NCBI RefSeq assembly: GCF_046119375.1
Contig: NW_027362765.1
Location: forward strand, 471,262,001 to 471,326,000
From: Phyllobates terribilis
Taxonomy: Eukaryota
Length of the DNA: 64,000 nucleotides
Reading direction: 5' to 3'
Within the stretch, counting starts at the first letter, position 1. Every line of letters starts with the position of its first letter. The notes below the pieces were generated by a model, which made no database searches, was not told the DNA's origin, and saw only the letters and a program-made list of their open reading frames with translations. A program made the translations under genes and the position numbers. Shown in pieces: positions 2,691 to 61,200 of the stretch.

Positions 2691-4093
2691 GGTGACACAT
2701 TTTGTGTTGGAACCCAAGAGCTTTACGTCCTCGCAGCGTGAACTCACTCAAAATTGCACAAATATTGCTTGTGTGTTTCTTACCAGAACTAGTATAAACT
2801 GTAGTGACTGCATTTAGCCATTGAAGTCTATGACTAAAGCAGACACACAGAACCAATGAATGGAGGAAGCAAAATCCCAGTTTTCTTAATTCCCATAAAT
2901 GTGAAGGATGGGAATACCACTTTAAAAGAAATTATTATTTGCAAGATTTCTAATTGCAAGTAACGCCCTCAACACTACAAGGCGTCATTTTTTGCAATCT
3001 GATGTGGAACTTGCTCTCTGTTTATTCAGATCTACTAAATTTATAATCATTTTTATCATGGTCTACAGCTATAAGGAAGCTTGTTTTGAGAAAAAACATT
3101 GGCAGTACATTGTTTTGTTGTGAAAATGAGAAAGAAGAAAAGCTGTGAAATAAATATTCTGTAGATATAAAAATGACATTAAAAATGAGAAATGACAAAT
3201 TGATGTTGGCATTCATCCTCAAGAGAACCCAGACTGGTTTGGGATGTGGGCAGGTTGCCAGATTCTTTGCACAGATGAGACAAGCTGTATATGAGAAAGT
3301 TTTCAGTCAATCTCGTGAGAAATATTTGAAGACTTGGCGGACTTTGCAAAGAAACTTTTTTTTATCTTAAGAAAAATGCGGAACGTATTTGTATGCAAGG
3401 ATTCGACAGCTGGGCTATCTGAAGGAAATAACTGTAGTAAGCATTCATGTTGTTTACTATTTGATCTAATACAGGCATGTCCAAAGTCCGGCCCGCGGGC
3501 CATTTGCGGCCCGCGGTCCGGACTAATAAGGCCCCCAGGTATCCAGCAGCATGTACCTTGCGGCCGCTGCCGCTCTCGTCGCCACCGCCGCTCTCGTCGC
3601 CACCGCCGCTCAGTACTCCGGCGCAGGGAGAAGAGCCGAAATCTCGGACATCGCGAGATTTCGGCTTTCCTTCTCCCTGCGCCGGAGTACTGAGCGGCGG
3701 CAACCGGCCAGCCAAGATCTCGCGACGTGCGAGATCTCCAGCCCCCAGGGGTTGTAAGACGTTCAGAGGTCAGATAGGCTGAAGACCTCAGCTTAGTTGT
3801 GTAAAATTATATAAATAATATATATATTAAGTTATATATAAGTCCCTGCGCCACCTTACACCTCCAGAAAGGTTAGGCCAGCAGGGCTCTCACACAAGCT
3901 TGTGGTAGCAAGCTGTCATACCCTTCATTAACCCCTGACTGCCTGTCACTGTGCTATAATTCCATTATCTGATGTGCGACTGTTGCACAGCTTGCTATTC
4001 TCTGCCTGTGTTATAAAGCATATAGCAGTATCTTATTTTTGCTGTTCCACCCTCTGCGCCTTTTAATCTCTCCCCTTCTGGCCAATTTTTATA

Positions 4094-5914
4094 ATGGCAA
4101 CTACAAATAAGAAACGAAAAGTTGACAGTGAGGGCCGCCGCTTCCAGGACAAGTGGAAAGTAGAATATTTTTTCACTGAAATAAAGAATCACTGTGTTTG
4201 TCTGATATGCCAAGAGACCGTTGCTGTTTATAAAGAATTTAATGTCAAGCGACACTATCAGACGAGACATAGCACATACGACAAGCTAACAGGGCACGAC
4301 CGAAGTGAAAAGTATAAGCAACTTGAAGCTGTTTTATTGTCACAACAGCGATTTTTTACAAGAGCCCGTGAGTCAAATGAAAATGCCACAAAGGCGAGCT
4401 ATGAGGTGGCAGCGTTAATTGCTAAAAATTGCAAATCTTTTGCAGAGGGTGACTTTATCAAAGAATGTGTTATGAAAATGGTAGAGAATGTCTGTCCCGA
4501 GAAGAAGCAAGAGTTTTCCAACATTTGCCTGGCTCGTAACACTGTAGCACGGAGAATTGAAGAAATTTCATCGGATATTAAGAGACAGTTAATGTCAAAA
4601 GGAGCTGATTTTGACTTCTTTTCAATAGCCTGTGATGAAAGCACGGACCTATCTGACACGGCTCAGTTGCTGATTTTTTTAAGAGGGGTGGACGATGAAA
4701 TGAATGTGACTGAAGAGCTACTTGACCTCCAGAGCCTCAAGGATCAAACAAGAGGGAAAGATTTATTTGATTCTGTTAGTTCTGCCATAGATGACATGAA
4801 ACTGCCTTGGAACAAAGTTACTGGGATTATTACTGATGGGGCACCTGCCATGACTGGTGAACGAAGTGGATTATCAACCCTAATCTGTAACAAGGTGAGC
4901 GAAGAAGGAGGCAAAGCTATTAAACTTCATTGCATCATTCATCAACAAGTTCTCTGTGCTAAACATCTCCAATATGATCATGTTATGAAACCGGTACTAA
5001 AGACCATTAATTTTATCCGCTCTAAAGCCCTGTGCCACCGCCAGTTTAAACAGTTTCTACTGGATATCCAGGCTGAATATGAAGATGTTTCATATCATAA
5101 CGATGTAAGATGGCTCAGTCGGGGGTCTGCACTGCAACGTTTCTACTCTCTCAGAAAGGAAATAGGAGAATTCTTGGAAACAAAGGGACAAACGATGCGA
5201 GAACTATCTGATCCAATTTGGCTGGCTGATTTGGGGTTTCTAGTCGACCTAACAAAGCATCTGAATGTACTGAACATGAATCTTCAGGGCAAAGATGCAG
5301 CGGTGAACCAACTTTATTCACACCTCAAAGCCTTTGGAACAAAGCTGCAACTTTTCCTAAGGCAGTTGTCACAAACACCGCCCAATACCATCCATTTTTC
5401 AGCGCTACAGGAAATAATTAACAGTTTTCCACAGGATGATATCCATGCGCAAATAAGCAGGTATGCAGCAGACATCACATCTCTGGCTGGGGAGTTTCAA
5501 CGGCGCTTTCAAGATTTTGCAGCTATTGAAAAGGAGATCAGCATTTTCTCCTCTCCATTCTCTGTTGACCCCGACAATGCTCCTGATCAGTTGCAGCTCG
5601 AGCTCATTGAGCTACATTGTGACAGCGAGTTACGCAGTCGTCATCAACAGCTCTCTCTTGTTAACTTTTACCGCCAACTGGATAAGAGCCGGTTTCAAGA
5701 GATTCGAACATTGGCTAAGAAAACCCTGAGCTTGTTTGGCTCAACATATTTGTGTGAGAAGACATTCTCTGTTATGAACTTTAACAAGAACCGCGTGAGG
5801 ACAAGACTAAGTGACTCTCACCTGCGTGACATTTTGCGCATCAAAACCACGGCCATTGAACCAGACCTAGTCTATGTGCTGCAGTCCAGATCCCAGTTTC
5901 ACCCTTCACATTAG
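4094..5914 (+). CDS. Intact hAT transposase, 606 aa (SPIN/Buster/GTF2IRD2-like)
   Basis: Uninterrupted ORF with KKRK NLS, CLIC..RHYQTRH zinc finger, catalytic D (IACDESTD), D (IITDGAPAM), CIIH, VRWLS and E (STYLCEKTFS), and C-terminal RTRLSD dimerisation region. Confidence 0.95.
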   Translation: MATTNKKRKVDSEGRRFQDKWKVEYFFTEIKNHCVCLICQETVAVYKEFNVKRHYQTRHSTYDKLTGHDRSEKYKQLEAVLLSQQRFFTRARESNENATKASYEVAALIAKNCKSFAEGDFIKECVMKMVENVCPEKKQEFSNICLARNTVARRIEEISSDIKRQLMSKGADFDFFSIACDESTDLSDTAQLLIFLRGVDDEMNVTEELLDLQSLKDQTRGKDLFDSVSSAIDDMKLPWNKVTGIITDGAPAMTGERSGLSTLICNKVSEEGGKAIKLHCIIHQQVLCAKHLQYDHVMKPVLKTINFIRSKALCHRQFKQFLLDIQAEYEDVSYHNDVRWLSRGSALQRFYSLRKEIGEFLETKGQTMRELSDPIWLADLGFLVDLTKHLNVLNMNLQGKDAAVNQLYSHLKAFGTKLQLFLRQLSQTPPNTIHFSALQEIINSFPQDDIHAQISRYAADITSLAGEFQRRFQDFAAIEKEISIFSSPFSVDPDNAPDQLQLELIELHCDSELRSRHQQLSLVNFYRQLDKSRFQEIRTLAKKTLSLFGSTYLCEKTFSVMNFNKNRVRTRLSDSHLRDILRIKTTAIEPDLVYVLQSRSQFHPSH

Positions 5915-17031: not shown

Positions 17032-18662
17032 CAGTACAGACCAAAAGTTTGGACACACCTTCTCATTTAAAGATTTTTCTATATTTTCATGACTATGAAA
17101 ATTGTACATTCACACTGAAGGCATCAAAACTATGAATTAACACATGTGGAATTATATACTTAACAAAAAAGTGTGAAACAACTGAAAATATGTCTTATAT
17201 TCTAGGTTCTTCAAAGTAGCCACCTTTTACTTTGATGACTGCTTTGCACACTCTTGGCATTCTCTTGATGAGCTTCAAGAGGTAGTCACCGGAAATGGTT
17301 TTCACTTCACAGGTGTGCCCTGTCAGGTTTAATAAGTGGGATTTCTTGCATTATAAATGGGGTTGGGACCATCAGTTGTGTTGTGCAGAAGTCTGGTGGA
17401 TACACACCTGATAGTCCTACTGAATAGACTGTTAGCTGTTTTTTTCTTGCCATAATACAAATTGTAAGTAAAGAAAAATGAGTGGCCATCATTACTTTAA
17501 GAAATGAAGGTCAGTGAGTCCGAAAAATTGGGCAAACTTTGAAAGTGTCCCCAAGTGCAGATGCAAAAACCATCAAGCGCTACAAAGAAACTGGCTCACA
17601 TGAGGAACGCCCCAGGAAAGGAAGACCAAGAGTCACCTCTGCTTCTGAGGATAAGTTTATCCGAGTCACCAGCCTCAGAAATCGCAGGTTAACAGCAGTT
17701 CAGATTAGAGACCAGGTCAATGCCACACAGAGTTCTAGCAGCAGACACATCTCTACAACAACTGTTAAGAGGAGACTTTGTGCAGCAGGCCTTTATGGTA
17801 AAATAGCTGCTAGGAAACCACTGCTAAGGACAGGCAACAAGCAGAATAGACTTGTTTGGGCTAAAGAACACAAGGAATGGACATTAGACCAGTGGAAATC
17901 TGTGCTTTGGTCTGATGAGTCCAAATTTAAGATCTTTTGTTCCAACCACCGTGTCTTTGTGCGACGCAAAAAAGGTGAACGTATGGACTCTACATGCCTG
18001 GTTCTCACCGTGAAGCATGGAGGAGGAGGTGTAATGGTGTGGGGGTGCTTTGCTGGTGACACTGTTGGGGATTTATTCAAAATTGAAGGCATACTGAACC
18101 AGCATGGCTACCACAGCATCTGGCAGCAGCATGCTATTTCATCCGGTTTGCATTTAGTTGGACCATCATTTATTTTTCAACAGGACAATGACCCCAAACA
18201 CACCCTCCAGGCTGTGTAAGGGCTATTTGACCAAGAAAGAAAGTGATGGGGTGCTACGCCAGATGACCTGGCCTCCACAGTCACCAGACCTGAACCCAAT
18301 CGAGATGGTTTGGGGTGAGCTGAACCGCAGAGTGAAGGCAAAAGGGCCAACAAGTGCTAAGCATCTCTGGGAACTCCTTCAAGATTGTTGGAAGACCATT
18401 TCCGGTGACTACCTCTTGAAACTCATCAAGAGAATGCCAAGAGTGTGCAAAGCAGTCATCAAAACAAAAGGTGGCTACTTTGAAGAACCTAGAATATAAG
18501 ACATATTTTCAGTTGTTTCACACTTTTTTGTTAAGAATATAATTCCACATGTGTTAATTCATAGTTTTGATGCCTTCAGTGTGAATGTACAATTTTCATG
18601 GTCATGAAAATACAGAAAAATCTTTAAATGAGAAGATGTGTCCAAACTTTTGGTCTGTACTG
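17032..18662 (+). mobile_element. Full-length Tc1-like element with DD38E spacing (Intruder-type), transposase inactivated
   Basis: TA TSDs at 17030-31 and 18663-64; ~200-bp TIRs starting CAGTACAGACCAAAAGTTTGG; WSDESK, QQDNDPKH, SPDLNPIE motifs; +1 frameshift near 18204; 38 residues between the second D and E after correction. Confidence 0.93.
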
Positions 18663-19751
18663 TACATTGTATATAAATGTAGGCATAAGCAAAATGAAAA
18701 ATGTGGTGCAGTCTTATGTCTTAAAACTACTTTTAACTAGAATATTACAATCTTTTATTCAGCTTATATAGCACATTGATAGACCAGGTGCTCTGTTGAC
18801 TTTCCGGTAGTCACAGAATTGTGCAAGATTGGTGAGACTCTGAATCTTGTGTGGCTTTGTCTCTCCCACTTGTGGCTGGCTGACTATTGCCTGGGCGCTG
18901 AATACTTTCCAGTATGCTGAGGAGGATGTAGGAGACCATCTAATCTCCTCCACTGACTATAGTTCTCCATGGACAAATTAGTCTTATTCACCATCACCAA
19001 TGCTTTCTGCTGGGACACACTCAGTCAAACAGGACCACTGGAACACTTTAGGACCATCACCATCTTAGCAACTGTCTAGCTAGTTCCTTGTTTGGTAAGT
19101 CACACAATCATAGTGCACACTGTTGTTGCAGAACAGTATAATCTCCTTGGTCTTGATTAATCAGCATAATGTTCTCCCACCACCAATGTTGTTCTAATAA
19201 TCCATCAGTTATGAGATATACAATTGATTAGCTCAGTCCTTAGAATGCAATCTCCAGGACAGTAGGACATTGCTTTAATCCCCCACCTACTGAACCACTA
19301 TCACAGTATTACCTATTGTTTTAATCTAATTTTTACTGTAAATGTCTTTTGAAATATGTACTTTTTTAATTTTCACTATCACTGTCTATTTAAAATAAAA
19401 GCAGAAATTTTGCCCTTTTCACCTGTGATGTGCAGGGGAGGGGGGGAATTGAAATTAAGTAAGTAGCCGGGTATTTCTTTGCGTCCCTCGGCCGAGAAGC
19501 ATGACAAAACTGATTTAACAAAAAGCAATTTCAAAGCAACCAAACCTCTACTATGGGCCATACAGGTATGTATAGATTTACATTTCTATCACCTCTATGC
19601 CCATATTAGAGGTCTGATAAGTCCAAAGGGGTGACAGATTCCCTTTAAGGCTGACTAGGCTTCTTAAGGACTAGGAGCCATCTATTTTTGCTGAGGCACT
19701 GTTACCTGCACCAGTCAGAGGCCTCTCACCTAGACAAATCACATCTTGTGC

Positions 19752-19796
19752 TTTGCACTGAGGAGGGGAAAATACTCAGAAACATGTGTCTGCAAA
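19752..19796 (+). ncRNA. Degenerate minimal type I hammerhead ribozyme
   Basis: TTTGCA-CTGAGGA-GGGG-AAAATA-CTCA-GAAAC-ATGT-GTC-TGCAAA: core and stem I intact, palindromic stem III (ACATGT), G10.1/A11.1 mismatch in stem II. Confidence 0.65.
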
Positions 19797-20183
19797 TTTA
19801 GTTTCTGGTTTGGCTTCTTATTCTAAGTCATGTGTCAAGGCTCATTAAAGGGTCAATATTGACTTTTAGAATTGCTACTTACAATACATGGCGTTAGAGA
19901 TCAAGTCCCTTTCCTTTCTTAAGAGGATATATTCATATTCAGTATTCAATGGTTAAAAGCACTTTGCACTCTGTGCGGTGGCAATGCGTGTAGATATATT
20001 TATATGTTTGTCAAAGATGACCAATAGCGTACTAGCCTCAAGGATGCAAATTGTCTCTTCAGAAAGGAAGAGGACTAGAACTCTAATGCCACCTATAGGA
20101 AGCAGCAATCCTAAAAGTCAATATCGACTCTCTATCGAGCCTTGCCACATGACTTAGGATAAAAGCCAGAACCAAAATCTCAG

Positions 20184-20226
20184 TTTGCAGACACTGTTTC
20201 AGGGTACTGCCCCTCATCAGTGCAAA
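20184..20226 (-). ncRNA. Minimal type I hammerhead ribozyme
   Basis: Minus strand reads TTTGCA-CTGATGA-GGGG-CAGTA-CCCT-GAAAC-AGT-GTC^TGCAAA: full CUGAUGA/GAAA core, 6-bp stem I, 4-bp stem II, 2-bp stem III, GUC cleavage triplet. Confidence 0.82.
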
Positions 20227-22025
20227 GTGTGACATCTGGCTTGGATTTTAGGATTGTTACTTTCTATAGGTGGCACTAGAGTTCTAGTCCTCTTCCTCTC
20301 TGAAGAGACAATTTGCATATTTCCCAGAGGATCATTGCGGCTTAAAAGTCTCCTCACCTTGACATGCTTAACATGTCACACTCTGCAAGGAGAAACGTTA
20401 CCCCTTGGATCTCAGCCTCAAGGTTGTGATGACACACTGCCTCCTCCCTTATAACACCCCCATGAGAAATAAAGTCACGACTAGACTATAACGTGGGCTC
20501 AAACTTTCCCATGGGCCATTAGGATCTATCAACACAGTTATTTATACTTCTTTAAAATTTGTTTTTTAAAAACAAAAAACAAATTGTGGCCAAAAAGCAC
20601 AAGTCAGGCTTTCAAAAAATAAAAGGTAAAATAAATGGGCTGTGAGAGAATACTATGGGGGCTACCATGGGTTAGTCCAGCCCTGCCTTCACAATGACCT
20701 TTACCCTGATTAAATCATGCTTAGATATAAATAATGTCAGAATCAGTCTATTGCTGCTAATGTCCGTGTGGCTGCTGAAAAGAACAGGAAGTAAAGGTCT
20801 AATATTAGGGCTAGTGGCCAGTATGAAAATTGCAAGATTTTTTTTAACCCCTTCATGCCAGGTTTTTTTGCTTTTTTTTTTACATTGTTATTTTTGCTAT
20901 ATACTGCAAAACTAATCTCCTATGAAGCTCAGGGATTCACAGGTACGGTATGCCAAGACTAAAATTGCAAATTCTGTATAAATCCCTTTCTGTATATTTT
21001 TCCAGATTTTTAATTGCAATGTGTGCAAATGTAAAGAATTTTCACACTATAACTAAACTGATTTCTGGAAATAATGTACGGTAAATGCAACAGAATATAT
21101 CAAATATGATCAAGTATTTATGGTTCTGCATTTGTAATACTTGCTTAGCTAGTGTTATAAAATAACTAATAGCTGGCCATTGTTTCTCCAGTGTTCTCAG
21201 GGTGTTCCATTCTATTTTGCTGAGACGGCACAGCTTTTCAGAGAGGGTATACTTTGGCAAAGCCCGTCAGTTGCTATGGTGACCTAAACCAAGCAGCAGT
21301 GCCCACATTATAGCAATTTCAAAAACACCCACTCTAATGAGCAGTCTCCTTTAGAGATGGGTATGCCCTCCTGCCAGTACCGGTGGATTTTACACTTGGC
21401 CACACACATAGAACATTTTAGCATTGATGTGTTGGAGCTCTATAGAGATTTGTTTGTGAGGGTTGCTGCATTGTGGAAGAATGTAAATCAAGACAAATGT
21501 AAAAATGTAAATCAGTCATCTGGGCTGTAAATGAGCAACTTTATGTGTCATTTTAAATTGGTACAAAATTGGGAAAAAATATTTTTTCTCTAGAAGCAAC
21601 AATGTTTCAGGGTTGAAAAAAAAAACATTGGACACAAATCACGATACAATTGAAATATGTAAGTAATGTATACTCACTAGTGTTGAGCGAGCACTAAAAT
21701 GCTCGGGTGCTCGAAGCTCGGGCCGAGCTCACTGTGATACTCGGGTGCTCGACCCGAGCAACAAGCCCAACGTTAGTCTATGGGAGACCCGAACATTTTT
21801 GCGGCGGCTCCCCCGGCAGTCTGTAGAAAGCCTAAAAAGTGCCCAAAACGATAGTGACAGTACTCAAATGACATGGGGACAGCATGGGGATCGCCCCTGG
21901 AAGCATTTCTGACCCCCAGGTCACTGCTGTCAACAACGTGGTCAGAGGTATTAAGCCACTTTTACAGGCTCACAATAAAACGTTCAAAAACGAAAGTGAA
22001 AGTGCTTTCCTGTGAAATATGTTAA

Positions 22026-29954: not shown

Positions 29955-32900
29955 TTATGTTACACTGCTGTCATTTGGTGGTGATGAGAAGTCTGGCCCA
30001 ATCCAGCCCTTGTTCATTTTGATAAGGGTCAGCTTGTCAGCGTTGTCAGTTGACAAGCGAGTGCGCTTATCAGTTATAATTTCCCCAGCGGCACTAAAAA
30101 CACGCTCCGATAACACGCTAGCGGCAGGGCAGGCCAAGACCTCCAAGGCGTACAGAGCGAGTTCATTCCAAGTGTCCAGCTTGGATACCCAATAATTAAA
30201 AGGCACAGAGGAATCACGGAGGACGCTGGTACGATCGGCAAGGTACTCCCTCACCATCTTTTGAAACTTTCCACTCCTTGTGAGAGTACCCCGCGCCTCA
30301 GGGCATGTAAGCTGGGCGGGTGTCAGAAAACTGTCCCTGAACGTTGACAGTGTTCCCCTGCCTCTGCTTGATTGGAGTTGCATCTCTCTCGCCTGTACGC
30401 CTTGGTTGGGCAACGAACTGTGACCTCTGCCGCTAGTGTGTTCAGATGGGAATTTTTTTAAAAGTTCTGCAGCAAGGGCCTTCTGGTATTGCCCCATTTT
30501 TGTAGACCTCTCAACCTCAGGAATAAGAGAGTGAAAGTTCTCCTTGTAGCGGGGGTCTACAAGTGTCACCAACCAGTAATGACTGTCACCCAACATTTTG
30601 ACAACGCGAGGGTCACGGTTAAGGCAGCGTAACATAAAGTCAGCCATGCGTGCCAGACTGGTAACGGGCAAGATTTCCGTGTCCTCACCAAGATGACGAC
30701 TGACCATGCTCTCCTCCTCCTCCTCCTCTTCCTCCTCCCCCCTGTCCTCAGGCCACCCACGCTGAACCGACGGTATGACACTTGTACAGGTACTACCGTC
30801 TACAATGCATGATAGCAGCTCCTGTTCTTCCTCCTCCTCCTCCTCCTCCTCTCCCTCATTGTCCCCCAATGCACGTTGGGATGAAATGAGGCTGGGCTGT
30901 GTGTAATCGCCCGCTACGGCTTCTTGATCCATCTCATCATACTCTGGCTGCAATGCCTCCTCTTTAATTCTCTGCAGAGAGCGTTGTAAAAGACAGACAA
31001 GTGGGATGCTGACACTAATGATGGCGTCATCGCCACTCACCATCTTGGTGACCTCCTCAAAGTTTGTCAGGATGGTACATATGTCAGACATCCAGGTCCA
31101 CTCCTGAGGTCTTATGTGTGGAGTCTGACCTGAATATCGACGGCCTTGTTGCAGCTGGTACTCCACAACTGCTCTCTTCTGCTCACAAATCCTTTGCAAC
31201 ATGTAGAGGGTAGAGTTCCAACGCGTGGGGACATCACACACCAGTCAGTGTGCCGGAAGCTGCAAACGCTGCTGCAACACAGCAAGGGCGGCGGAAGCTG
31301 TAGCCGACTTGCGAAAATGAGCTGACAGGCGGCGTACTTTCACGAGCAGATCTGGCAACTCGGGGTATGATTTAAGAAACCGCTGAACCACGAGGTTAAG
31401 CACATGAGCCAGGCATGGTACGTGTGTGATCTCACCTCGCCTCAGAGCCGCCACCAGGTTACGGCCATTGTCACACACGACCATGCCGGGATGTAGGTTC
31501 AGCGGTCTCAGCCACAGATCTGCCTGCTCTTTCACAGCTGTCCACAACTCACAAGCAGTGTGAGGTTTATCACCTAAGCTTATGAGTTTCAGCACAGCCT
31601 GTTGCCGCTTGGCGGAGGCAGTACTGCAATGCTTCCAGCTTGTAACTGATGTGGTGATATCTGAGATGGAGGCTGAACATGAGGAGGAGGAGGAGGATGC
31701 GCAGGAGCTGTACACTGTGGGGGCAACTCTGACTGACATAGGGCCCGCAATCCTCGGTGTGGGGAGGATGTGTTCCGTCCCAAGGTCCGACTGGGTCCCG
31801 GCTTCCACTATGTTTACCCAGTGTGCCGTCAGAGAGATGTACCGTCCCTGGCCACAAGCACTTGTCCACGTGTCCGTTGTCAGGTGGACTCTCCCAGTAA
31901 CTGCGTTGTTGAAGGCACGGCAGATGCTTTGGGACACGTGCTTGTGTAGTGTGGGGATGGCACACCGGGCAAAATAGTGTCGGCTGGGGACCGAGTACCG
32001 AGGGACGGCCACCGCCATAAGATTGCGGAAGGATTCCGTCTCCACCAGCCTAAAAGGCAGCATTTCCAATGCAAGCAGTCGTGAAATGTGCGAATTTAGG
32101 ACTGTGGCCTGTGGGGTGTTAGCTGCGAATTTCCGCTTTCATTCAAAGGTCTGGGATATGGACAATTGAACGCTGCGGTGGGACGTGGACGTGGACGTTG
32201 ATGCTGTTTCTTGAGAAACTGCCATAACAAGTGAAGACTGAGAGGAGGGGGCATCTTTACATGCAGAATGGACAGGGGATTGCCTTGCACACACAACAGG
32301 GGGTTCTATTGCACGCACAACAGTGGAAGAAGCAGTGGTGACACCCGCTGACACTGGTCGTGGACCCTGGGTTTCGCCCCACAAAGTCGGGTGCTTTGCT
32401 GCCATGTGCCTGATCATGCTGGTGGTGGTCAGGCTGGTAGTTTTGTCACCCCTGCTGATGCTGGTATGGCTGGTGGAACATATGGCCTTTTTGGGGTTAT
32501 CAGTAGAGTCTTTAAAAAAATTCCAGACTCTGGAAGACCTACCGCTTGTACTGGCAACGTCCCTCGTGTTGGTGTTACGGGGAACGGTTGCCTGCCTTCT
32601 GTCTGCGGCCACCACACTGCTTCTTCCTGCCTGTTGGGGTACTCTGCCTCCCTCCCCCTGTGTGCTGCTGGCCTCACTCTGCATGTCCTCCTTCCACGTT
32701 GGGTCAGTTACTAGATCATCCACCACCTCCTCCTCTTCCACTTGCGCACCACGATCCTCCTCCTCACTTCCTGGCAATTGTGTCTCGTCATCGTCCACCT
32801 CTTGTGACAGATTGCCAACGTCGACTTCCTGTGGCCGTGGCTGTTGAAATATTTGGGCATCACAACATGGGATCTCCTCTTCCACCACTTCAAGCGTATC

Positions 32901-33320
32901 AGGCGAGGGGCCCAAATATGGAAATGGACCAGTGAACAGCTCTTCAGAGTGTCCAAGTGTGGGATCACTTGCTGTCTGACGACACTCGGCATGGTGGGAG
33001 GAAGGAGCATCAGGGTGAGGAGGAGTATGCGGTCGAGACACACGACTACTAAGAGTTGACCGTGTGGAAGACAGACCGTAGGTGGTGGTGCCCAGGTAAC
33101 TGGAAGTATTGTCTGCTATCCAATTAATAACCTGTTCACACTGATCAGTTCTCAATACTGGTGTTGTTCTGCGCTTCCCTAGTAATTCGGTCAAGAAGTG
33201 GGAGCGAGAAGATGTGGCTGTTGGTTGTGGCACATTTTCACCTTGGCCACGGCCCCGTCCTCTGCACTAACCATCACCAGAACGTCCACTTCCACGTCCC
33301 TTGCCACGCGCCTTGCCCAT
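29955..33320 (-). pseudogene. Ac/ZBED-like hAT transposase, 1122 codons, three in-frame stops, no frameshift
   Basis: ATG at 33320; stops at 33267-69, 32139-41 and 31245-47; motifs VWNFF..AIC (BED finger), HLTTDTWTS, VCDNGRN, CLAH, PTRWNST, SVLSERVFS. Confidence 0.92.
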
Positions 33321-41831: not shown

Positions 41832-41930
41832 TAAATATGCAAATTGGCTCTTCAGAGAGAAAAAGGACCTATGGAATCAGCAATCCTACAAGTCACAATC
41901 GACCCTTTGACGAGTTGTGCAATATGACTG
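41832..41930. mobile_element. Fragment of the hammerhead-bearing repeat family (no ribozyme retained)
   Basis: AAATATGCAAATTGGCTCTTCAGAGAG..GCAATCCTACAAGTC aligns to 20041-20155 with an internal deletion. Confidence 0.65.
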
Positions 41931-44094: not shown

Positions 44095-45685
44095 CAGTGA
44101 GGAAAATAAGTATTTGATCCCTTGCTGTTTTTGTATGTTTTCACACTGACAAAGACATGAACAGTCTATCATTTTAAGGGTAGGTTAATTTTAACATTGA
44201 GACATAGAATAGCCAAAAAAATATTCAAGAAAATCACATTGTATAAATTAGATAAATTTATTTGCATTTTGCAGTGAGAAATAAGTATTTGATCCCCTAC
44301 AAACTATTTTGAGTTTTGGCTCCTAGAGACCAGTTAGACTCTCCTAATCAACTCGTTACGTGCATTAAAGACAGCCGTCTTACATAGTCAGTTGTATAAA
44401 AGACTCCTGTCCACAGACTCAATTAATTAGTCAGACTCTAACCTCTACAACATGGGCAAGACCAAAGAGCTTTCTAAGGATGTCAGAGACAAGATCATAG
44501 ACCTGCACAAAGCTGGAATGGGCTACAAAACCATAAGTAAGATGCTGGGTGAGAAGGAGACAACTGTTGGCGCAATAGTAAGAAAATGGAAGAAATACAA
44601 AATGACGGTCAATCGACATCGATCTGGGGCACCATGCAAAATCTCACCTCGTGGGGTATCCTTGATCATGAGGAAGGTGAGAGATCAGCCTAAAACTTCA
44701 CAGGGGGAACTTGTTAATGATCTCAAGCCAGCTGGAAACACAGTCACCAAGAAAACCATTGATAACACATTACGCCTTTAAAGGTTTAAAATCCTGCAGT
44801 CGCCGCAAGGTCCCCCTGCTCAAGAATGCACATGTGCAGGTCCTTCTGAAGTTTGCCAATGAACACCTGGATGATTCTGTGAGTTATTGGGAGAAGGTGT
44901 TGTGGTCAGATGAGACAAAGTTTAGCTCTTTCGCATTAACTCAACTTGCCGTGTTTGGAGGAAGAGAAATGCTGCCTATAACCCAAAGAACACCATCCCC
45001 AATGTCAAGCATGGAGGTGGAAATAATATGTTTTGGGGGTGTTTCTCTGTTAACGGCACAGGACTACTTCACCGCATCAATGGGAGAATGGAAGGAGCCA
45101 TGTACCGTAAAATCCTGAGTGACAACCTCCTTCCCTCCACCAGTAAAGTAAAAATGGGTCGTGGCTGGGTCTTCCAGCAAGTCAATGACCCAAAACATAC
45201 AGCCAAGGCAACAAAGGAGTGGCTCAAAAAGAAGCACAGTAAGGTCATGGAGTGGCCTAGCCAGTCTCCCAACCTTAATCCCATGGAAAACTTATGGAGG
45301 GAGTTGAAGCTCCGAGTTGCCAAACGACAGCCTCAACATCTTAATGATTTAGAGATGATCTGCAAAGAGGATTGGACCAAAATTCCTCCTGACATGTGCG
45401 CAACCCTCATCATCAGCTACAAAAAATGTCTGACTGCTTTGCTTGCCAACAAGGGTTTTGCCACCAAGTATTAAGTTTTGTTTGCCAGAGGAGTCAAATA
45501 CGTATTTCTCACTGCAAAATGCAAAAAAATGTATCTAATTTATGCAATGTGATTTTCTTGATTTTTGGGGGATATTCTCTCAATGTTAAAATTAACCTAC
45601 CCTTAAAATTAAAGACTGTTCATGTCTTTGTCAGTGGGGAAACTTACAAAAACAGCAATGGATCAAATACTTATTTCCCCCACTG
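44095..45685 (+). mobile_element. Full-length Tc1 (DD34E), transposase inactivated
   Basis: TA TSDs at 44093-94 and 45686-87; TIR CAGTG(A/G)GGAAAATAAGTATTTGATCC; [10 protein letters not shown] start at 44452, stop at 44779, WSDETK, second D mutated to V (QQVNDPKH), GFATKY end. Confidence 0.94.
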
Positions 45686-51687: not shown

Positions 51688-53122
51688 CACTGCTCAAAAA
51701 ATAAAGGGAACACTTAAACAACAGAATATAACTCTAAGTAAATCAGACTTCTGTGAAATCAAACTGTCCACTTAGGAAGCAACACTGATTGACAATCAAT
51801 TTCACATGCTGTTGTGCAAGTGGAATAGACAATAGATGGAAATTATTGGCAAGACTCACTCAATAAAGGAGTGGTTCTGCAGGTGGGGACCACAGACCAC
51901 GTCTCAGTACCAATGCTTTCTGGCTGATGTTTTGATCAATTTTGAATGTTGGTTGTGCTTTCACACTCATGGTAGCATGAGACGGACTCTACAACCCACA
52001 GAAGTTGCTCAGGTAGTGCAGCTCATCCAGGATGGCACATCAATGCGAGCTATGGCAAGAAGGTTTCCTGTGTCTGTCAGCGTAGTGTCCAGAGGCTGGA
52101 TGCGCTACCAGGAGACAGGCCAGTACACCAGGAAATGTGGAGGTGGTCATAGGAGGGCATGAGGGTGGTATAAAGGCCAGACGTGCACAGATGGGGGTTG
52201 TGCTCACAGCCCAACACCGTGCATTACGCTTGGCATTTGCCACAGAGCACCAGGATTGGCAAAGTCGCCACTGGCGCCCTGTGCTCTTCACCGATGAAAG
52301 CAGGTTCACACTGAGCACATGTGACAGATGAGACAGAGTCTGGAGACGCCATGGAGAGCGATCTGCTACCTGCAACATCCTTCAGCATGACCGGTTTGGC
52401 AGTGGGTCAGTAATGGTGTGGGGTGGCATTTCTTTGGAAGGCTGCACAGCCCTCCATGTGCTCGCCAGAGGTAGCCTGACTGCCATTAGGTACCGAGATG
52501 AGATCCTCAGACCCCTTGTGACACCATATGCTGGTGCAGTTGGCCCTGGGTTCTTCCTAATGCAGGACAATGCCAGACCTCATGTGGCTGGAGTGTGTCA
52601 GCAGTTCCTGCAAGATGAAGTCATTGAAGCTATGGACTGGCCCGCCCGTTCCCCAGACCTTAATCCGATTGAGCACAACTGGGACATCATGTCTCTCTCC
52701 ATCCACCAACGTCACGTTGCACCACAGACTGTCCAGGAGTTTGCGGATGCTTTAGTCCAGGTCTGGGAGGAGATCCCACAAGAGACCATCCGCAACCTCA
52801 TCAGGATCATGCCCAGGCGTTGTGGGAGGTCATACAGGCACGTGGAGGCCACACACAATACTGAGCCTCATTTTGACTTGTTTTAAGGACATTACATCAA
52901 AGTTGGATCAGCCTGTAGTGTGTTTTTCCACTTTAATTTTGGGGGTGACTCCAAATCCAGGCCTCCATTGGTTAATAAATTTGATTTCCATGGATGATTT
53001 TTGTGTGATTTTGTTGTCAGCACATTCAACTTTGTACAGAACAAAGTATTCAATGAGAATATTTCATTCATTCAGATCTAGGATGTGTTATTTGAGTGTT
53101 CCCTTTATTTTTTTGAGCAGTG
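51688..53122 (+). mobile_element. Tc1 (DD34E) with internal deletion
   Basis: TA TSDs at 51686-87 and 53123-24; TIR CACTGCTCAAAAAATAAAGGGAACACT; FTDESRF, MQDNARPH, SPDLNPIEH; deletion near 52150. Confidence 0.92.
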
Positions 53123-57650: not shown

Positions 57651-58206
57651 TTACCGGGCCCAGCTTGGTGACACGTACGTAAATCTGTCCACGGGATGAA
57701 GGACTGTATGCTCCGGCCACTGCAGATGATGGTTCTCCAGAACTGGCCTGAATGGTGAAAATGGTGGCTCTGCTCTCCTTTCCTCCAGTTCCTCCCAGCC
57801 GATGGTGCTAAAGAATGGATGCTCCCGGATGTTCCCGCTCACACCCAGGCGTGTCTGAGGGTCTTTGCGCAGCAGCTTCTTGATGAGATGTTTCCCATCA
57901 GCATCAAGCCAAGATGGAAATTTTGGCTTTTCATTGATGATAGCTTTGAAAGCCATTTGCTTGATGGGGCCGTTGTAAAATGGGAATCGTCCTGCTGCCA
58001 TCCTGGACACGACAATCCCCAGGCTCCACCAGTCCACTGCTGCGCCGTATCGTTTTCTACGAAACACCTCAGGAGCCATGTAGTGGAAAGTGCCCGTCAC
58101 TCCAGAGATGTTTTTGGAGGAGGTAACGCCATCTTGGGCAAGCCCAAGGTCGATTATACGGATGTGGCCATCCGCATCCAGCATGATGTTATCTGGCTTT
58201 ATGTCT
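57651..58206 (-). CDS. Kinase exon 4 (catalytic loop to C-terminus)
   Basis: Acceptor tttcattacag; DIKPDN..DLG..APE..DWWSLG..HPFF..PPFSP..RFTYVSP; stop at 57651-53. Confidence 0.95.
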
Positions 58207-61200
58207 CTGTAATGAAAAAAAAATAAAAAAAAAATTAGAAATCTGTCCAGTGATAAAAGAGATGGAAATTGAGTCATTGCAAGATCAGATAGAATAGGTG
58301 GCCGGACACAACGGAAGCTGGTGGTCATATCTCTAGAATGTGAAAGAGACAGAGAGAAGGAGTAGAGATCTGCTTACCGGTGGACGATATTGTGTCCATG
58401 GAGGCCACATACTATCTCTGCTGTGTAGAATCTGATGGAGAGAACAGAGTGTAGTATCAATGTCATCAAATCCTTCTCTAGCAATCCCCAAATACCATGG
58501 AACCCCACCTCCTACATCCAGCACACTAAATACTCTATATGCCTTGCCATTCCTTCCTTAGCTACACCCTGACCTCAGATTTTTTTTCCATCTCCTTAGT
58601 TCTCTTTTACATACATTCTCCCCTTTCTCACCTCACATTGCCGATGTTCAGGCAGCCGCACATCCTGATCAAATTCTCTAGGCTGCCACCGGACAGATAC
58701 TCCGTGATGAAATATGCCCTCTGCAGAGACTGGTGTGCGGCATAGAGGTGGCATAAGAATGGGCAGTCTCTGGCAACCAGGAGTATCTGCCGCTCTCTCA
58801 TGATGGTATCCTCGTTGTCCTCCTTTTTGGTTATCATTTTGACAGCCATTTGGATGTTTCGGCCGGGGACTGATGCCAGGACCACCTAAGAGAGACAAAT
58901 GGAGAATACTTAGAAGGTGTCTGCAGGGAGTGGAAGTAATCTGGTTTTTATAGCACACATGAGTAAACTGAATGGTCGCTCAGTCTGCTGGTAACCAGGA
59001 CTATGTAGAGGAGCAAATCTATCTATCAGCATAATGCACTGCCTGCTCCATGGATGGGCTATGGAAAGGTCTTAAAGGGAACCTGTCATGTCCTGTGTAG
59101 CATCTAAACTGCCCCTTTTGCATTAGTGATGGAATGTGTATCACTAACACGCTTTTTTCATTAAAATTGGCGCTAATCTAATATGTAAAATCCACTTTAT
59201 ATGTTTGTATCATACATGCTCTTTTAGTCATAGAGGTGTGATTCCTTGCATTCAGTCAGAGTTTGTGCCGCGCACGTATTTGAATTCTGCTCCTGGCTTG
59301 CGCTGACGTAAGTATGGGGCGCTTGCGCAGTATGTCATGCCAGCAAAGCTTGTAGAGCTGGGAGCCGCGCATGTGCTGTGACGAGCGTCTCCAGCCGCAC
59401 ACAGTGAAGCTGGGAACTACACAGCAGTGTCACTGTGCAAGCGCAGGGAGCCGCTCATCACAGCGCATACGCGGCTCCCAGCGCTACAAGCTTTGCTGGC
59501 ATGACATACTGCGCAAGCGCCCCATACTTACATCAGCGCAAGCCGGGAGCAGAATTCAAATACGTGGGTGGCACAAACCCTGACTAAATGCGAGGAATCA
59601 CACCTCTATGACTTAAAGAGCAGGTATGATATAAATATGTAAAGTGGATTTTACATACAGTTCTGGCAAAAATTAAGAGACCACTGCACAGTTTTCTAAA
59701 AATCACCATCTCTACATGTCTGACACCCATTCCATTCCAGTGTCAGTTGAATTCCAACCAAAGTCCAACTCCTTCTACTTAATTTGCTTCTGATTAGGTG
59801 ATCACCTGAATCAATCTTATGTAACGAGGGAAAGTATAAAAAACACTGCTGTGGTCTTCACAATCCTCTTGCAATAGGACAAGCTGGATGGCAAAACAAG
59901 TGCTAGGAATAGGCCAAAAGTAATTTGAATGAAAAATAACTTTTAACCATGCCAAAGAAGTTGAAAAGAAAAGTCTTGAGTGAGGAAAAGAAGGGCTCAA
60001 TTCTGGCTTTACTAGCAGAGGGATACAGTGAGCATCATGTTGCCTCCATTCTTAAAATTTTGAAGACTGCAGTCCATTACAACAAGGTCAAGCAGCAGAC
60101 ATTGGGGACAACAAAGCTACAGACCGCTACAGGGCGAAAGCGACTCTCCACTGACCGGCATGACCCCGCAGGATGCCATCAAGTGACCTACAAAAGGAAT
60201 GGCGAATGGTAGCTGGGGTGAAGTGCACGGCAAGAACAGTTCGTAAGAGGCTCCTAGAGGCAGGCCTCAAGTCTTGTAAAGCTAGAAAAAAAACTTTCAT
60301 CAATGAGAAGCAAAGGAGAGCCAGGCTGAAGTTTGCCAAAGACCATAAGGATTGGACCATAGAAGACTGGAGTAAGGTAATCTTCTCTGATGAGTCTAAT
60401 TTTCAGCTTTGCCCAACACCTGGTCGTCTAATGGTTAGATGGAGACCTAGAGAGGCATACAAGCCACAGTGTCTTGTACCCACTGTGAAATTTGTTGGAG
60501 GATCGGTGATGATCTGGGGATGCTTCAGCAAGGCTGGAATTGGGCAGGTTAATCTTATGCGAAGGACATATGAATCAAGCCGCATACAAGGTTATCCTTG
60601 AAAAACACTTGCTTCCTTCTGTTCAGGCAATGTTCCCCAACTCTGAGGACTGTTTTTTTTCCAGCAGGACAATACCCCATGCCACACAGCTAGGTCAATC
60701 AATGTGTGGATGAAGGCGCACCACATCAAGACCCTGTCATGGCTAGCCCAATCTCCAGACCTGAACCTCATTGAAAACCTCTGTAATGTAATCAATAGGA
60801 AGATGGATAGTCACAAGCCATCAAACAAAGAAGAACTGCTTAAATCTTTGTGCCAGGAGTGGCATAAGGTCACCCAAAAGCAGTGTGAAAGACTGGTGGA
60901 AAGCATGCCAAGACGCATGAAAGCTGTGATTAAAAATCATGGTTATTCCACCAAATATTGATTTCTGAACTCTCCCTGAGATAAAACATGAGTGTTGTTG
61001 TTTCTAAATGAATAAGAACTTGTTTTCTTTGCATTATTTGAGGTCTGAAAGCACTGTTTCTTTTTTATTTTGACGATTTCTCATTTGCTGCAAATAAATA
61101 CAAAATTTTTAGCTTTGAATTTCAGAGACATGCTGTCAGTAGTTTATAGAATAAAACAACAATGTACATTTTACTCAAAAATATATCTATAAAGAGAAAA

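What the first reader, a model, noticed from the sequence alone, without database searches (positions are those of the whole stretch)
20184..20226. Minimal type I hammerhead ribozyme on the minus strand
Seen: every core nucleotide is present (C3-U4-G5-A6-U7-G8-A9, G12-A13-A14-A15.1, GUC triplet), with stem I TTTGCA/TGCAAA, stem II GGGG/CCCT and a 2-bp stem III. A homologous copy at 19752-19796 keeps the core and stem I while loop residues differ. Established: minimal type I hammerheads with tiny helix III occur in Penelope-like elements, newt satellite 2 and animal non-LTR retrozymes, and often cleave as dimers. Inference: a self-cleaving RNA family in this frog that may produce small circular RNAs.
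Basis: partly seen in the sequence, partly recalled or inferred. Interest (0 to 1): 0.8.

Follow-up and report, generated by a model that had tools for sequence, protein, structure and literature searches.

The report
Hammerhead retrozyme with Penelope-type insertions
The self-cutting RNA motif is real but sits in a worn, solitary copy of a very abundant ~320-base jumping repeat of a known kind (a non-LTR retrozyme), whose insertions carry the footprint of Penelope-like transposon enzymes.

Summary
The motif is present exactly as described (20226-20184, minus strand). It is a canonical, extended type I hammerhead, not a 'minimal' one. It lies in a 311-333-nt tandem/dispersed repeat family with at least 2,203 copies whose core, helix II and inner helix I are intact. 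Three subfamily consensuses keep all 12 core bases, and helices I and II covary, so the fold is under selection in the master lineages. Individual copies decay neutrally. The window copy has a G10.1-U11.1 wobble, a 2-nt helix III deletion and no same-strand partner. The second copy is on the opposite strand, older, and has a broken helix II. Insertions end at two fixed sites about 93 nt apart, join back-to-back and carry 7-15-bp target duplications. Autonomous Neptune-type elements in this genome show the same signature. Verdict: new member of a known kind (amphibian-type non-LTR retrozyme), with direct footprint evidence for Penelope-like mobilisation. Cleavage, circles and the partner element are not shown. 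The scan noted similar Penelope-type footprints before in other genomes.

The parts
20184..20226 (-). Type I hammerhead core with helices I (6 bp), II (4 bp, G10.1-U11.1 wobble from CpG decay) and III (2 bp after a 2-nt deletion); predicted cut between 20190 and 20189
20165..20244 (-). Extended ribozyme domain: helix I continues past a 3x1 internal loop into a long stem, covarying in the family and partly damaged in this copy
20044..20244 (-). Sense arm of the insertion, unit positions 43-245, 92% identical to the subfamily A working consensus; ends at fixed end A (octamer)
20246..20410 (+). Inverted (back-to-back) arm, unit positions 173-337 (wrapping to 18), 96% identical; ends at fixed end B
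20319..20410 (+). About 93-nt 'tail' between end A and end B, present on one arm only
20034..20043 (+). Left copy of the 10-bp target-site duplication
20414..20423 (+). Right copy of the 10-bp target-site duplication
20311..20338 (+). Octamer followed by a 20-nt block invariant in three subfamily consensuses; candidate snRNA-type enhancer (function inferred, not shown). A second octamer copy is at 20044-20051
19710..19939 (+). Independent older insertion (subfamily B, 86%), unit 19-248; hammerhead at 19752-19796 with broken 10.1-11.1 pair
41833..41929 (-). Third, hammerhead-less fragment of the family (closest to subfamily C, 77%), ending at end A

Best explanation
The motif is the hammerhead of a non-LTR retrozyme, a non-coding ~320-nt unit copied by the enzymes of Penelope-like elements (PLEs). 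Steps: (1) inferred: tandem master copies are transcribed into multimeric RNA, possibly from an internal snRNA-type promoter as reported for newt satellite 2. (2) inferred from anatomy and covariation: two hammerheads pair through their near-palindromic helix III segments and cut after GUC, giving unit-length RNA that a host ligase can close. (3) footprint shown, enzyme inferred: a PLE endonuclease/reverse transcriptase, most likely of the Neptune type, nicks both DNA strands 7-15 bp apart and starts copying at two fixed internal sites about 93 nt apart, one for each end. The two cDNAs join back-to-back at variable points. (4) shown: copies run through the cut site and often exceed one unit, so the template was a circle or an uncut multimer, not a linear cut monomer. 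(5) shown: after insertion the copies decay neutrally. The window copy is such a solitary, truncated insertion with one hammerhead and is probably inactive or weak.
For: Unit and tandem period 318-333. Three subfamily consensuses: 0 of 12 core positions vary, 2 of 24 stem positions vary (one compensatory pair), 4 of 9 free positions vary, 57 of 236 positions outside vary; Fisher p=0.009. Helix II outer pair genome-wide: 855 G-C, 1,348 C-G, 88 mismatched of 2,291; the same double change appears at matching depth in 4 of 4 runs from four coded organisms. Named structure on 76 copies: 90.9% of cells paired, 47 double changes, 0 of 500 shuffles as high, slid controls 21-53%. Ends: 104 of 128 outer 3' ends fall in two windows covering 31 of 319 positions; 23 of 31 in an independent hammerhead-anchored set. 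Of 38 back-to-back insertions, 23 had both ends in these windows: 22 A+B, 1 A+A, 0 B+B. Duplications >=7 bp: 38 of 89 vs 9 of 400 controls. 5' ends within 5 nt of the cut: 4 of 136 vs 4.7 expected; 77 of 136 segments cross it; 41 of 136 exceed one unit. Neptune-type PLEs of this genome: 4 of 7 back-to-back regions show a 74-86-nt one-sided tail and a 10-14-bp duplication (2 by script, 2 read by eye). Inverted copy plus one-sided tail is the published PLE signature (PMC8557442, PMC3846280, PMC11167929).
Against: No cleavage, circle or transcript start was shown. No partner element was found: no significant similarity between the units and 30 GIY-YIG loci (apart from one apparently independent insertion) or 10 longer PLE regions. 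The tail is much longer than the 30-40 bp in print. 51 of 89 insertions had no exact duplication of 7 bp or more. Covariation counts reflect a few lineage events, not independent ones, and the structure was derived from these sequences. The PSE test against this genome's U1 promoter was not better than shuffles. Rfam models do not recognise the motif. In Xenopus only 1 of 9 dimer elements cleaved in vitro (10.64898/2026.07.22.740005). Subfamilies B and C rest on 29 and 17 loci selected by similarity or by an intact hammerhead, which biases C's core towards conservation.
Confidence: 0.8

Rival explanations
1. Same element and same PLE mobilisation, but the reverse-transcribed template is the uncut multimeric transcript; circles, if they form, are a side product.
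For: The insertion data cannot tell a circle from an uncut multimer. Hammerhead mutants did not affect insertion by the anole PLE in vitro (PMC11167929). 8 of 9 Xenopus dimers did not cleave.
Against: Core and helices are kept between subfamilies while the rest diverges, so the ribozyme matters to master lineages. Axolotl retrozymes of the same size form circles (PMC7229834).
Confidence: 0.3
2. The unit is merely the 5'-truncated terminal repeat (pLTR) of an autonomous PLE not yet found.
For: PLE-type ends; 21 Repbase PLEs match Xenopus retrozyme families; only 30 loci and 10 longer regions of at least 4,370 GIY-YIG candidates were examined.
Against: Arrays consist of the unit alone. 5' ends are spread round the whole unit. 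56 upstream flanks share no common sequence beyond a few pairwise repeats, and 9 GIY-YIG queries found no hit in 200 family loci. The hammerhead is canonical, whereas metazoan pLTRs carry min-HHRs.
Confidence: 0.08
3. Mobilised by a LINE through ordinary target-primed reverse transcription with twin priming.
For: 7-15-bp duplications and 5' inversions also occur with LINEs (established knowledge, recalled).
Against: Two fixed internal ends paired A+B in 22 of 23 cases; no A-rich tails seen at the ends printed (read by eye, not counted); same geometry in resident Neptune-type PLEs.
Confidence: 0.05
4. A miniature DNA transposon with 78-bp terminal inverted repeats that happens to hold a hammerhead-like sequence.
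For: Inverted arms 20044-20121 / 20241-20318, 91% complementary.
Against: The arms are parts of one circularly permuted unit, differ in length from copy to copy, extend beyond the inverted part on one side, and 52 of 90 insertions have arms in one orientation only.
Confidence: 0.01
5. This particular copy has been co-opted by the host as a functional ribozyme.
For: All 12 core bases are intact.
Against: 38 of 81 unselected copies also have all 12 intact. This copy has lost G10.1-C11.1 and 2 nt of helix III; predicted helix III self-duplex -4.2 vs -7.0 kcal/mol, hammerhead-compatible fold -20.9 vs -30.2.
Confidence: 0.03

Closest known systems
Animal non-LTR retrozymes: axolotl Rtz_331 / Rtz_353 and newt satellite 2 (PMC7229834; abstract, sections 15 and 17 and passages read)
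   Same: Unit of 311-333 nt, tandem plus dispersed copies, canonical type I hammerhead with weak palindromic helix III, duplications longer than 4 bp.
   Different: Consensus helix III here is 3 bp with a 2-3-nt centre. Sequence homology could not be tested (supplement too large to read). That paper's main text has no occurrence of 'inverted', 'frog' or 'Xenopus' and does not describe fixed paired ends.
Xenopus non-LTR retrozymes incl. REP4 (bioRxiv 10.64898/2026.07.22.740005; parts 1-3 of 5 read, abstract to discussion; supplements closed)
   Same: Retrozymes reported in all seven amphibians sampled, mean consensus 316 bp, mostly monomers; proposed to be non-autonomous PLE derivatives.
   Different: Their case rests on co-occurrence and pLTR similarity; 'tail' does not occur and 'TSD' only for plant elements. 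The family here shows the insertion footprint but no pLTR similarity in the sample tested. Whether it equals one of their families is unknown.
Penelope-like elements of the Neptune / Poseidon type (PMC8557442 and PMC3846280, passages; PMC11167929, parts 1-2 of 4; PMC4209133, parts 1-2 of 4)
   Same: Back-to-back inverted 5'-truncated arm, one-sided tail between two start sites of reverse transcription, 8-14-bp duplications.
   Different: No RT/GIY-YIG frame found beside it; canonical rather than minimal hammerhead; tail about 93 nt rather than 30-40 (resident Neptune-type tails are 74-86 nt).

Membership tests
Canonical type I hammerhead (PMC4209133) | Conserved core and NUH triplet | tested here: met
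   12 of 12 in the window copy and in three consensuses
Canonical type I hammerhead (PMC4209133) | Helix I 6 bp, helix II 4 bp | tested here: met
   95.6% and 88.8% of cells paired in 76 copies; compensatory pair in helix II
Canonical type I hammerhead (PMC4209133) | Short helix III with palindromic loop | tested here: met
   Self-duplex -7.0, -10.3, -7.4 kcal/mol for A, B, C; perfect palindrome only in B; -4.2 in the window copy
Canonical type I hammerhead (PMC4209133) | Loop 1 / loop 2 tertiary contacts | tested here: inconclusive
   Internal loop and extended helix I supported by double changes at two pairs (21 and 14 of 76 copies); the contacts themselves cannot be tested
Canonical type I hammerhead (PMC4209133) | G10.1-C11.1 pair | tested here: not met
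   G-U in the window copy, G-A in the second copy; met in the family consensus
Canonical type I hammerhead (PMC4209133) | Self-cleavage | not testable with these tools
   needs in vitro transcription
Rfam hammerhead families | Match to a covariance model | tested here: not met
   No hammerhead match, including an intact copy
PLE minimal hammerhead (min-HHR) | Helix II 7-8 bp, helix I 4-5 bp, unpaired base before 10.1 | tested here: not met
   4 bp, 6 bp plus extension, no extra base
PLE minimal hammerhead (min-HHR) | Located in a pLTR beside an RT/GIY-YIG frame | tested here: not met
   0 tblastn hits of 9 GIY-YIG regions in 200 loci with 1-1.5 kb flanks
Non-LTR retrozyme | 170-400-nt unit with type I hammerhead in tandem copies | tested here: met
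   319, 311, 333 nt; four intact hammerheads at 332-bp spacing on C1; 41 of 136 segments longer than one unit
Non-LTR retrozyme | At least two consecutive complete hammerheads at this locus ('active' criterion of the 2026 preprint) | tested here: not met
   One hammerhead in the insertion; the neighbour is on the other strand. Met elsewhere in the family
Non-LTR retrozyme | Target duplications longer than 4 bp | tested here: met
   7-15 bp in 38 of 89 vs 9 of 400 controls; 10 bp here
Non-LTR retrozyme | Expression as linear and circular unit-length RNA | not testable with these tools
   Only contig-level runs, none on record as RNA
PLE-mobilised element | Inverted 5'-truncated arm and one-sided tail | tested here: met
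   38 of 90 back-to-back; 22 of 23 classed pairs A+B
PLE-mobilised element | Sequence shared with an autonomous partner | tested here: inconclusive
   None in 30 loci + 10 regions; one 9-10-nt word shared by subfamily C and four related Neptune-type tails, 8-23 of 1000 shuffles, uncorrected
Newt satellite 2 | Internal snRNA-type promoter (stated in PMC2220036, passage; original paper not held) | tested here: inconclusive
   Exact octamer and adjacent invariant block in three consensuses; U1 PSE match not above shuffles
Newt satellite 2 | Sequence homology | not testable with these tools
   No satellite 2 sequence available from a tool

The most novel reading that the evidence does not exclude
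A self-sufficient, satellite-2-like RNA parasite rather than a pLTR fragment: it carries its own snRNA-type promoter, cuts itself as a dimer into a circle, and recruits a Neptune-type PLE enzyme in trans without sequence identity, through two internal start sites about 93 nt apart that are used once each, one per DNA strand. The strict A+B pairing of ends would then be a genomic record of a dimeric PLE enzyme priming both strands on a circular template.
Probability: 0.3. Interest if true: 0.6.

Novelty: new member of a known kind. Interest (0 to 1): 0.4.

Why it matters
The class is known, and amphibian retrozymes of this size are in print. What this family adds is a countable footprint. Published work proposes PLE mobilisation of animal retrozymes from co-occurrence and pLTR similarity and leaves the mechanism open. 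Here the two start sites, their pairing, the duplication length and read-through of the cut site can be mapped from thousands of copies and match resident Neptune-type elements. That names a template, two start sites and a candidate enzyme class for a direct in vitro test. My searches (and in-text finds 35, 62) did not show this footprint described for a retrozyme; subscription papers and supplements were not visible.

Tried and rejected
MITE reading of the 78-bp inverted repeat: rejected. Cis dimer of the two window hammerheads: rejected, opposite strands. Idea that the octamer segment pairs with the 3' strand of helix I to switch the ribozyme off in the circle: predicted probability 0.0 in all six folds, no covariation (103 of 110 segments T/A); rejected. 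Circle stability: z only -1.2 to -2.0 against 40 resampled sequences; uninformative. PSE match to this genome's U1 promoter: not above shuffles in any of 27 windows x 3 units (best 8-9 of 100 shuffles). U2 search gave no answer. Rfam scans negative. Partner search by flank similarity negative. Pfam PF26215 not in the library. Sequencing runs: no RNA holder listed; the four runs laid are contigs guessed to be RNA, so they say nothing on expression, starts or circles; 'goes back' joints are equally explained by genomic tandems. One search used a structure string that was off by one column and is void; one search is the corrected count. Rows dropped before counts: L087 (same place as L086); 8 of 30 loci overlapping other sets; L050 (near-duplicate of L034) for B; 3 of 20 overlapping loci for C; 76 of 151 available domains were aligned, leaving out sets selected on an intact hammerhead. 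PMC544870 (passages) gave no data on a G-U 10.1-11.1 pair; that it lowers activity is recalled.

Full report
Observation. The 43 bases 20226-20184 read on the minus strand as a complete type I hammerhead with the cut between 20190 and 20189. The loose core pattern is not above chance in the window (5 matches, 7.7 expected), the 43-mer folds only modestly better than shuffles, and Rfam models do not detect it or an intact relative. The evidence that it is real comes from its family.

The family. The surrounding sequence has 5,890 first-look candidates in the 10.57-Gb genome (40 scored). It is a circularly permuted unit found both singly and in head-to-tail arrays. An exact 34-mer occurs 1,007 times. 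Strict hammerhead patterns occur 855 times with a G-C outer pair in helix II and 1,348 times with C-G, reversed controls 0; allowing both letters gives 2,291, so only 88 are mismatched. Since 13 of 81 unselected copies match the first pattern, those lineages hold roughly 5,000 hammerheads (a rough lower estimate). Working consensuses of three subfamilies measure 319, 311 and 333 nt. Contigs from four other coded organisms hold relatives and show the same helix II double change at matching depth.

Selection on the ribozyme. Between the three consensuses 0 of 12 core positions and 2 of 24 stem positions vary (those two are the compensatory pair), against 4 of 9 free positions and 57 of 236 positions outside the domain (Fisher p=0.009). 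On 76 copies from sets not chosen for an intact motif, the named structure is paired in 90.9% of cells with 47 double changes; none of 500 shuffles reaches this and slid controls give 21-53%. Helix I continues past a small internal loop into a long stem with two covarying pairs (21 and 14 of 76 copies). These counts reflect few lineage events, and subfamily C was sampled on an intact motif. Against this, among copies of subfamily A the core decays as fast as the rest (93.8% vs 93.6% at non-CpG sites). By the definitions in PMC4209133 the motif is canonical, not minimal.

This copy. The insertion spans 20044-20413 between 10-bp duplications (20034-20043, 20414-20423). A minus-strand arm carries unit positions 43-245 with the hammerhead; a plus-strand arm carries 173-337. 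Relative to the consensus it has CpG decay at N7 and at 11.1 and a 2-nt deletion in helix III; a 2-nt deletion there is seen in 9 of 79 copies and in both sub-lineages, so it is recurrent slippage. Predicted helix III self-pairing falls from -7.0 to -4.2 kcal/mol. It has no same-strand partner and its arm begins downstream of the candidate promoter. I infer that it is inactive or weak.

How copies are made. In 90 insertions on contig C1 anchored on the exact 34-mer, 104 of 128 outer 3' ends fall in two narrow windows, A (unit 239-253, at an octamer) and B (unit 8-23), about 93 nt apart. The anchor lies next to A, so I repeated the count on 22 hammerhead-anchored loci: 23 of 31. 38 of 90 insertions are back-to-back; of the 23 with both ends in A or B, 22 are A+B (p=2e-6 against independent choice). 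Exact duplications of 7-15 bp flank 38 of 89 insertions against 9 of 400 mismatched controls. 5' ends are spread round the unit, with 4 of 136 near the cut site against 4.7 expected; 77 of 136 segments cross it and 41 exceed one unit. A linear cut monomer cannot be the main template; a circle or an uncut multimer can.

The enzyme. An inverted 5'-truncated arm with a tail on one side is the published signature of Penelope-like elements, and the anole PLE protein cuts and extends both strands and starts at two internal sites that define the tail. This genome holds many GIY-YIG elements (4,370 candidates, 150 scored), most of those inspected with a cysteine-rich stretch before the nuclease that I take, from recall, as Neptune-type. 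Four of seven back-to-back regions show a 74-86-nt one-sided tail and a 10-14-bp duplication (two by script, two by eye; three unclear). No partner was identified by sequence: nothing in 30 loci apart from one apparently independent insertion, nothing in 10 longer regions, no nuclease frame beside 200 family loci and no shared upstream flank. So the unit is probably not a truncated pLTR, although only a small part of the PLE diversity was sampled.

Promoter. An exact octamer and an adjacent 20-nt block are invariant in all three consensuses, and this genome's U1 genes have an octamer at -240. Newt satellite 2 is reported to use an snRNA-type promoter (passage of a citing paper). The PSE comparison was not above shuffles, so this remains a lead.

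Comparison and verdict. Canonical hammerheads in 330-350-bp repeats that cleave as dimers and form circles are described in newts and axolotl, and a 2026 preprint reports retrozymes in all seven amphibians sampled, mean 316 bp, proposed to derive from PLEs, with 1 of 9 Xenopus dimers cleaving. This is a new member of that kind. The added value is the footprint evidence for PLE mobilisation, which my searches (finds 35, 62) did not show for a retrozyme; supplements of both key papers could not be read and may bear on this. Earlier notes of this scan describe similar PLE-type footprints in other genomes; they prompted the truncated-pLTR test and are not counted as support. Interest 0.4.

Noticed in passing
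L246, L249-L250, L254, L256 (G000 C5, C3, C7, C1): Neptune-type PLE insertions with 74-86-nt one-sided tails, about twice the 30-40 bp in print; the tails hold a splice-donor-like CAGGTGAG (label recalled).
   Followed up: partly
subfamily C tail (L211-L230) vs Neptune-type tails: A 9-10-nt word is shared (8-23 of 1000 shuffles, uncorrected, four related tails); absent from subfamilies A and B.
   Followed up: partly
L090 and L122: Two insertions with different 5' ends share the same duplication and 88% identical flanks in opposite orientation: apparently independent hits at one position of another repeat.
   Followed up: no
listings: Helix III centres vary (CAG, CUG, CCG, and shortened AGU, ACU); the A- and U-centred variants are exact complements and could form perfect heterodimer helices.
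   Followed up: no
window 20263-20278 (+) and the mirror arm: A CTCF-like motif (resemblance recalled, untested) lies in a block conserved in all three subfamilies; thousands of copies could seed binding sites.
   Followed up: no
G000:C1:534628252-534671568: Tandem U1 snRNA array, 1,079-bp period, 40 matches listed, octamer at -240.
   Followed up: partly
window 57651-58373 (-): 240-aa open frame with a protein kinase C-terminal half (PF00069, E 9e-34): exon or processed copy.
   Followed up: no
window 4067-5914 (+), 17518-18219 (+), 29955-33266 (-), 44926-45474 (+), 52332-52886 (+): DNA transposon remnants: zf-C2H2_12/DUF4371 frame of 615 aa, Tc1-type pieces, hAT with BED finger and dimerisation domain.
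   Followed up: no
window 3606-3697: Near-perfect 92-nt GC-rich hairpin beside an 18-bp tandem repeat.
   Followed up: no
G000:C37 (and C297, C320): Eleven GIY-YIG matches with near-identical scores spaced about 0.8-2 Mb apart on one contig: a very large repeat unit or an assembly artefact.
   Followed up: no
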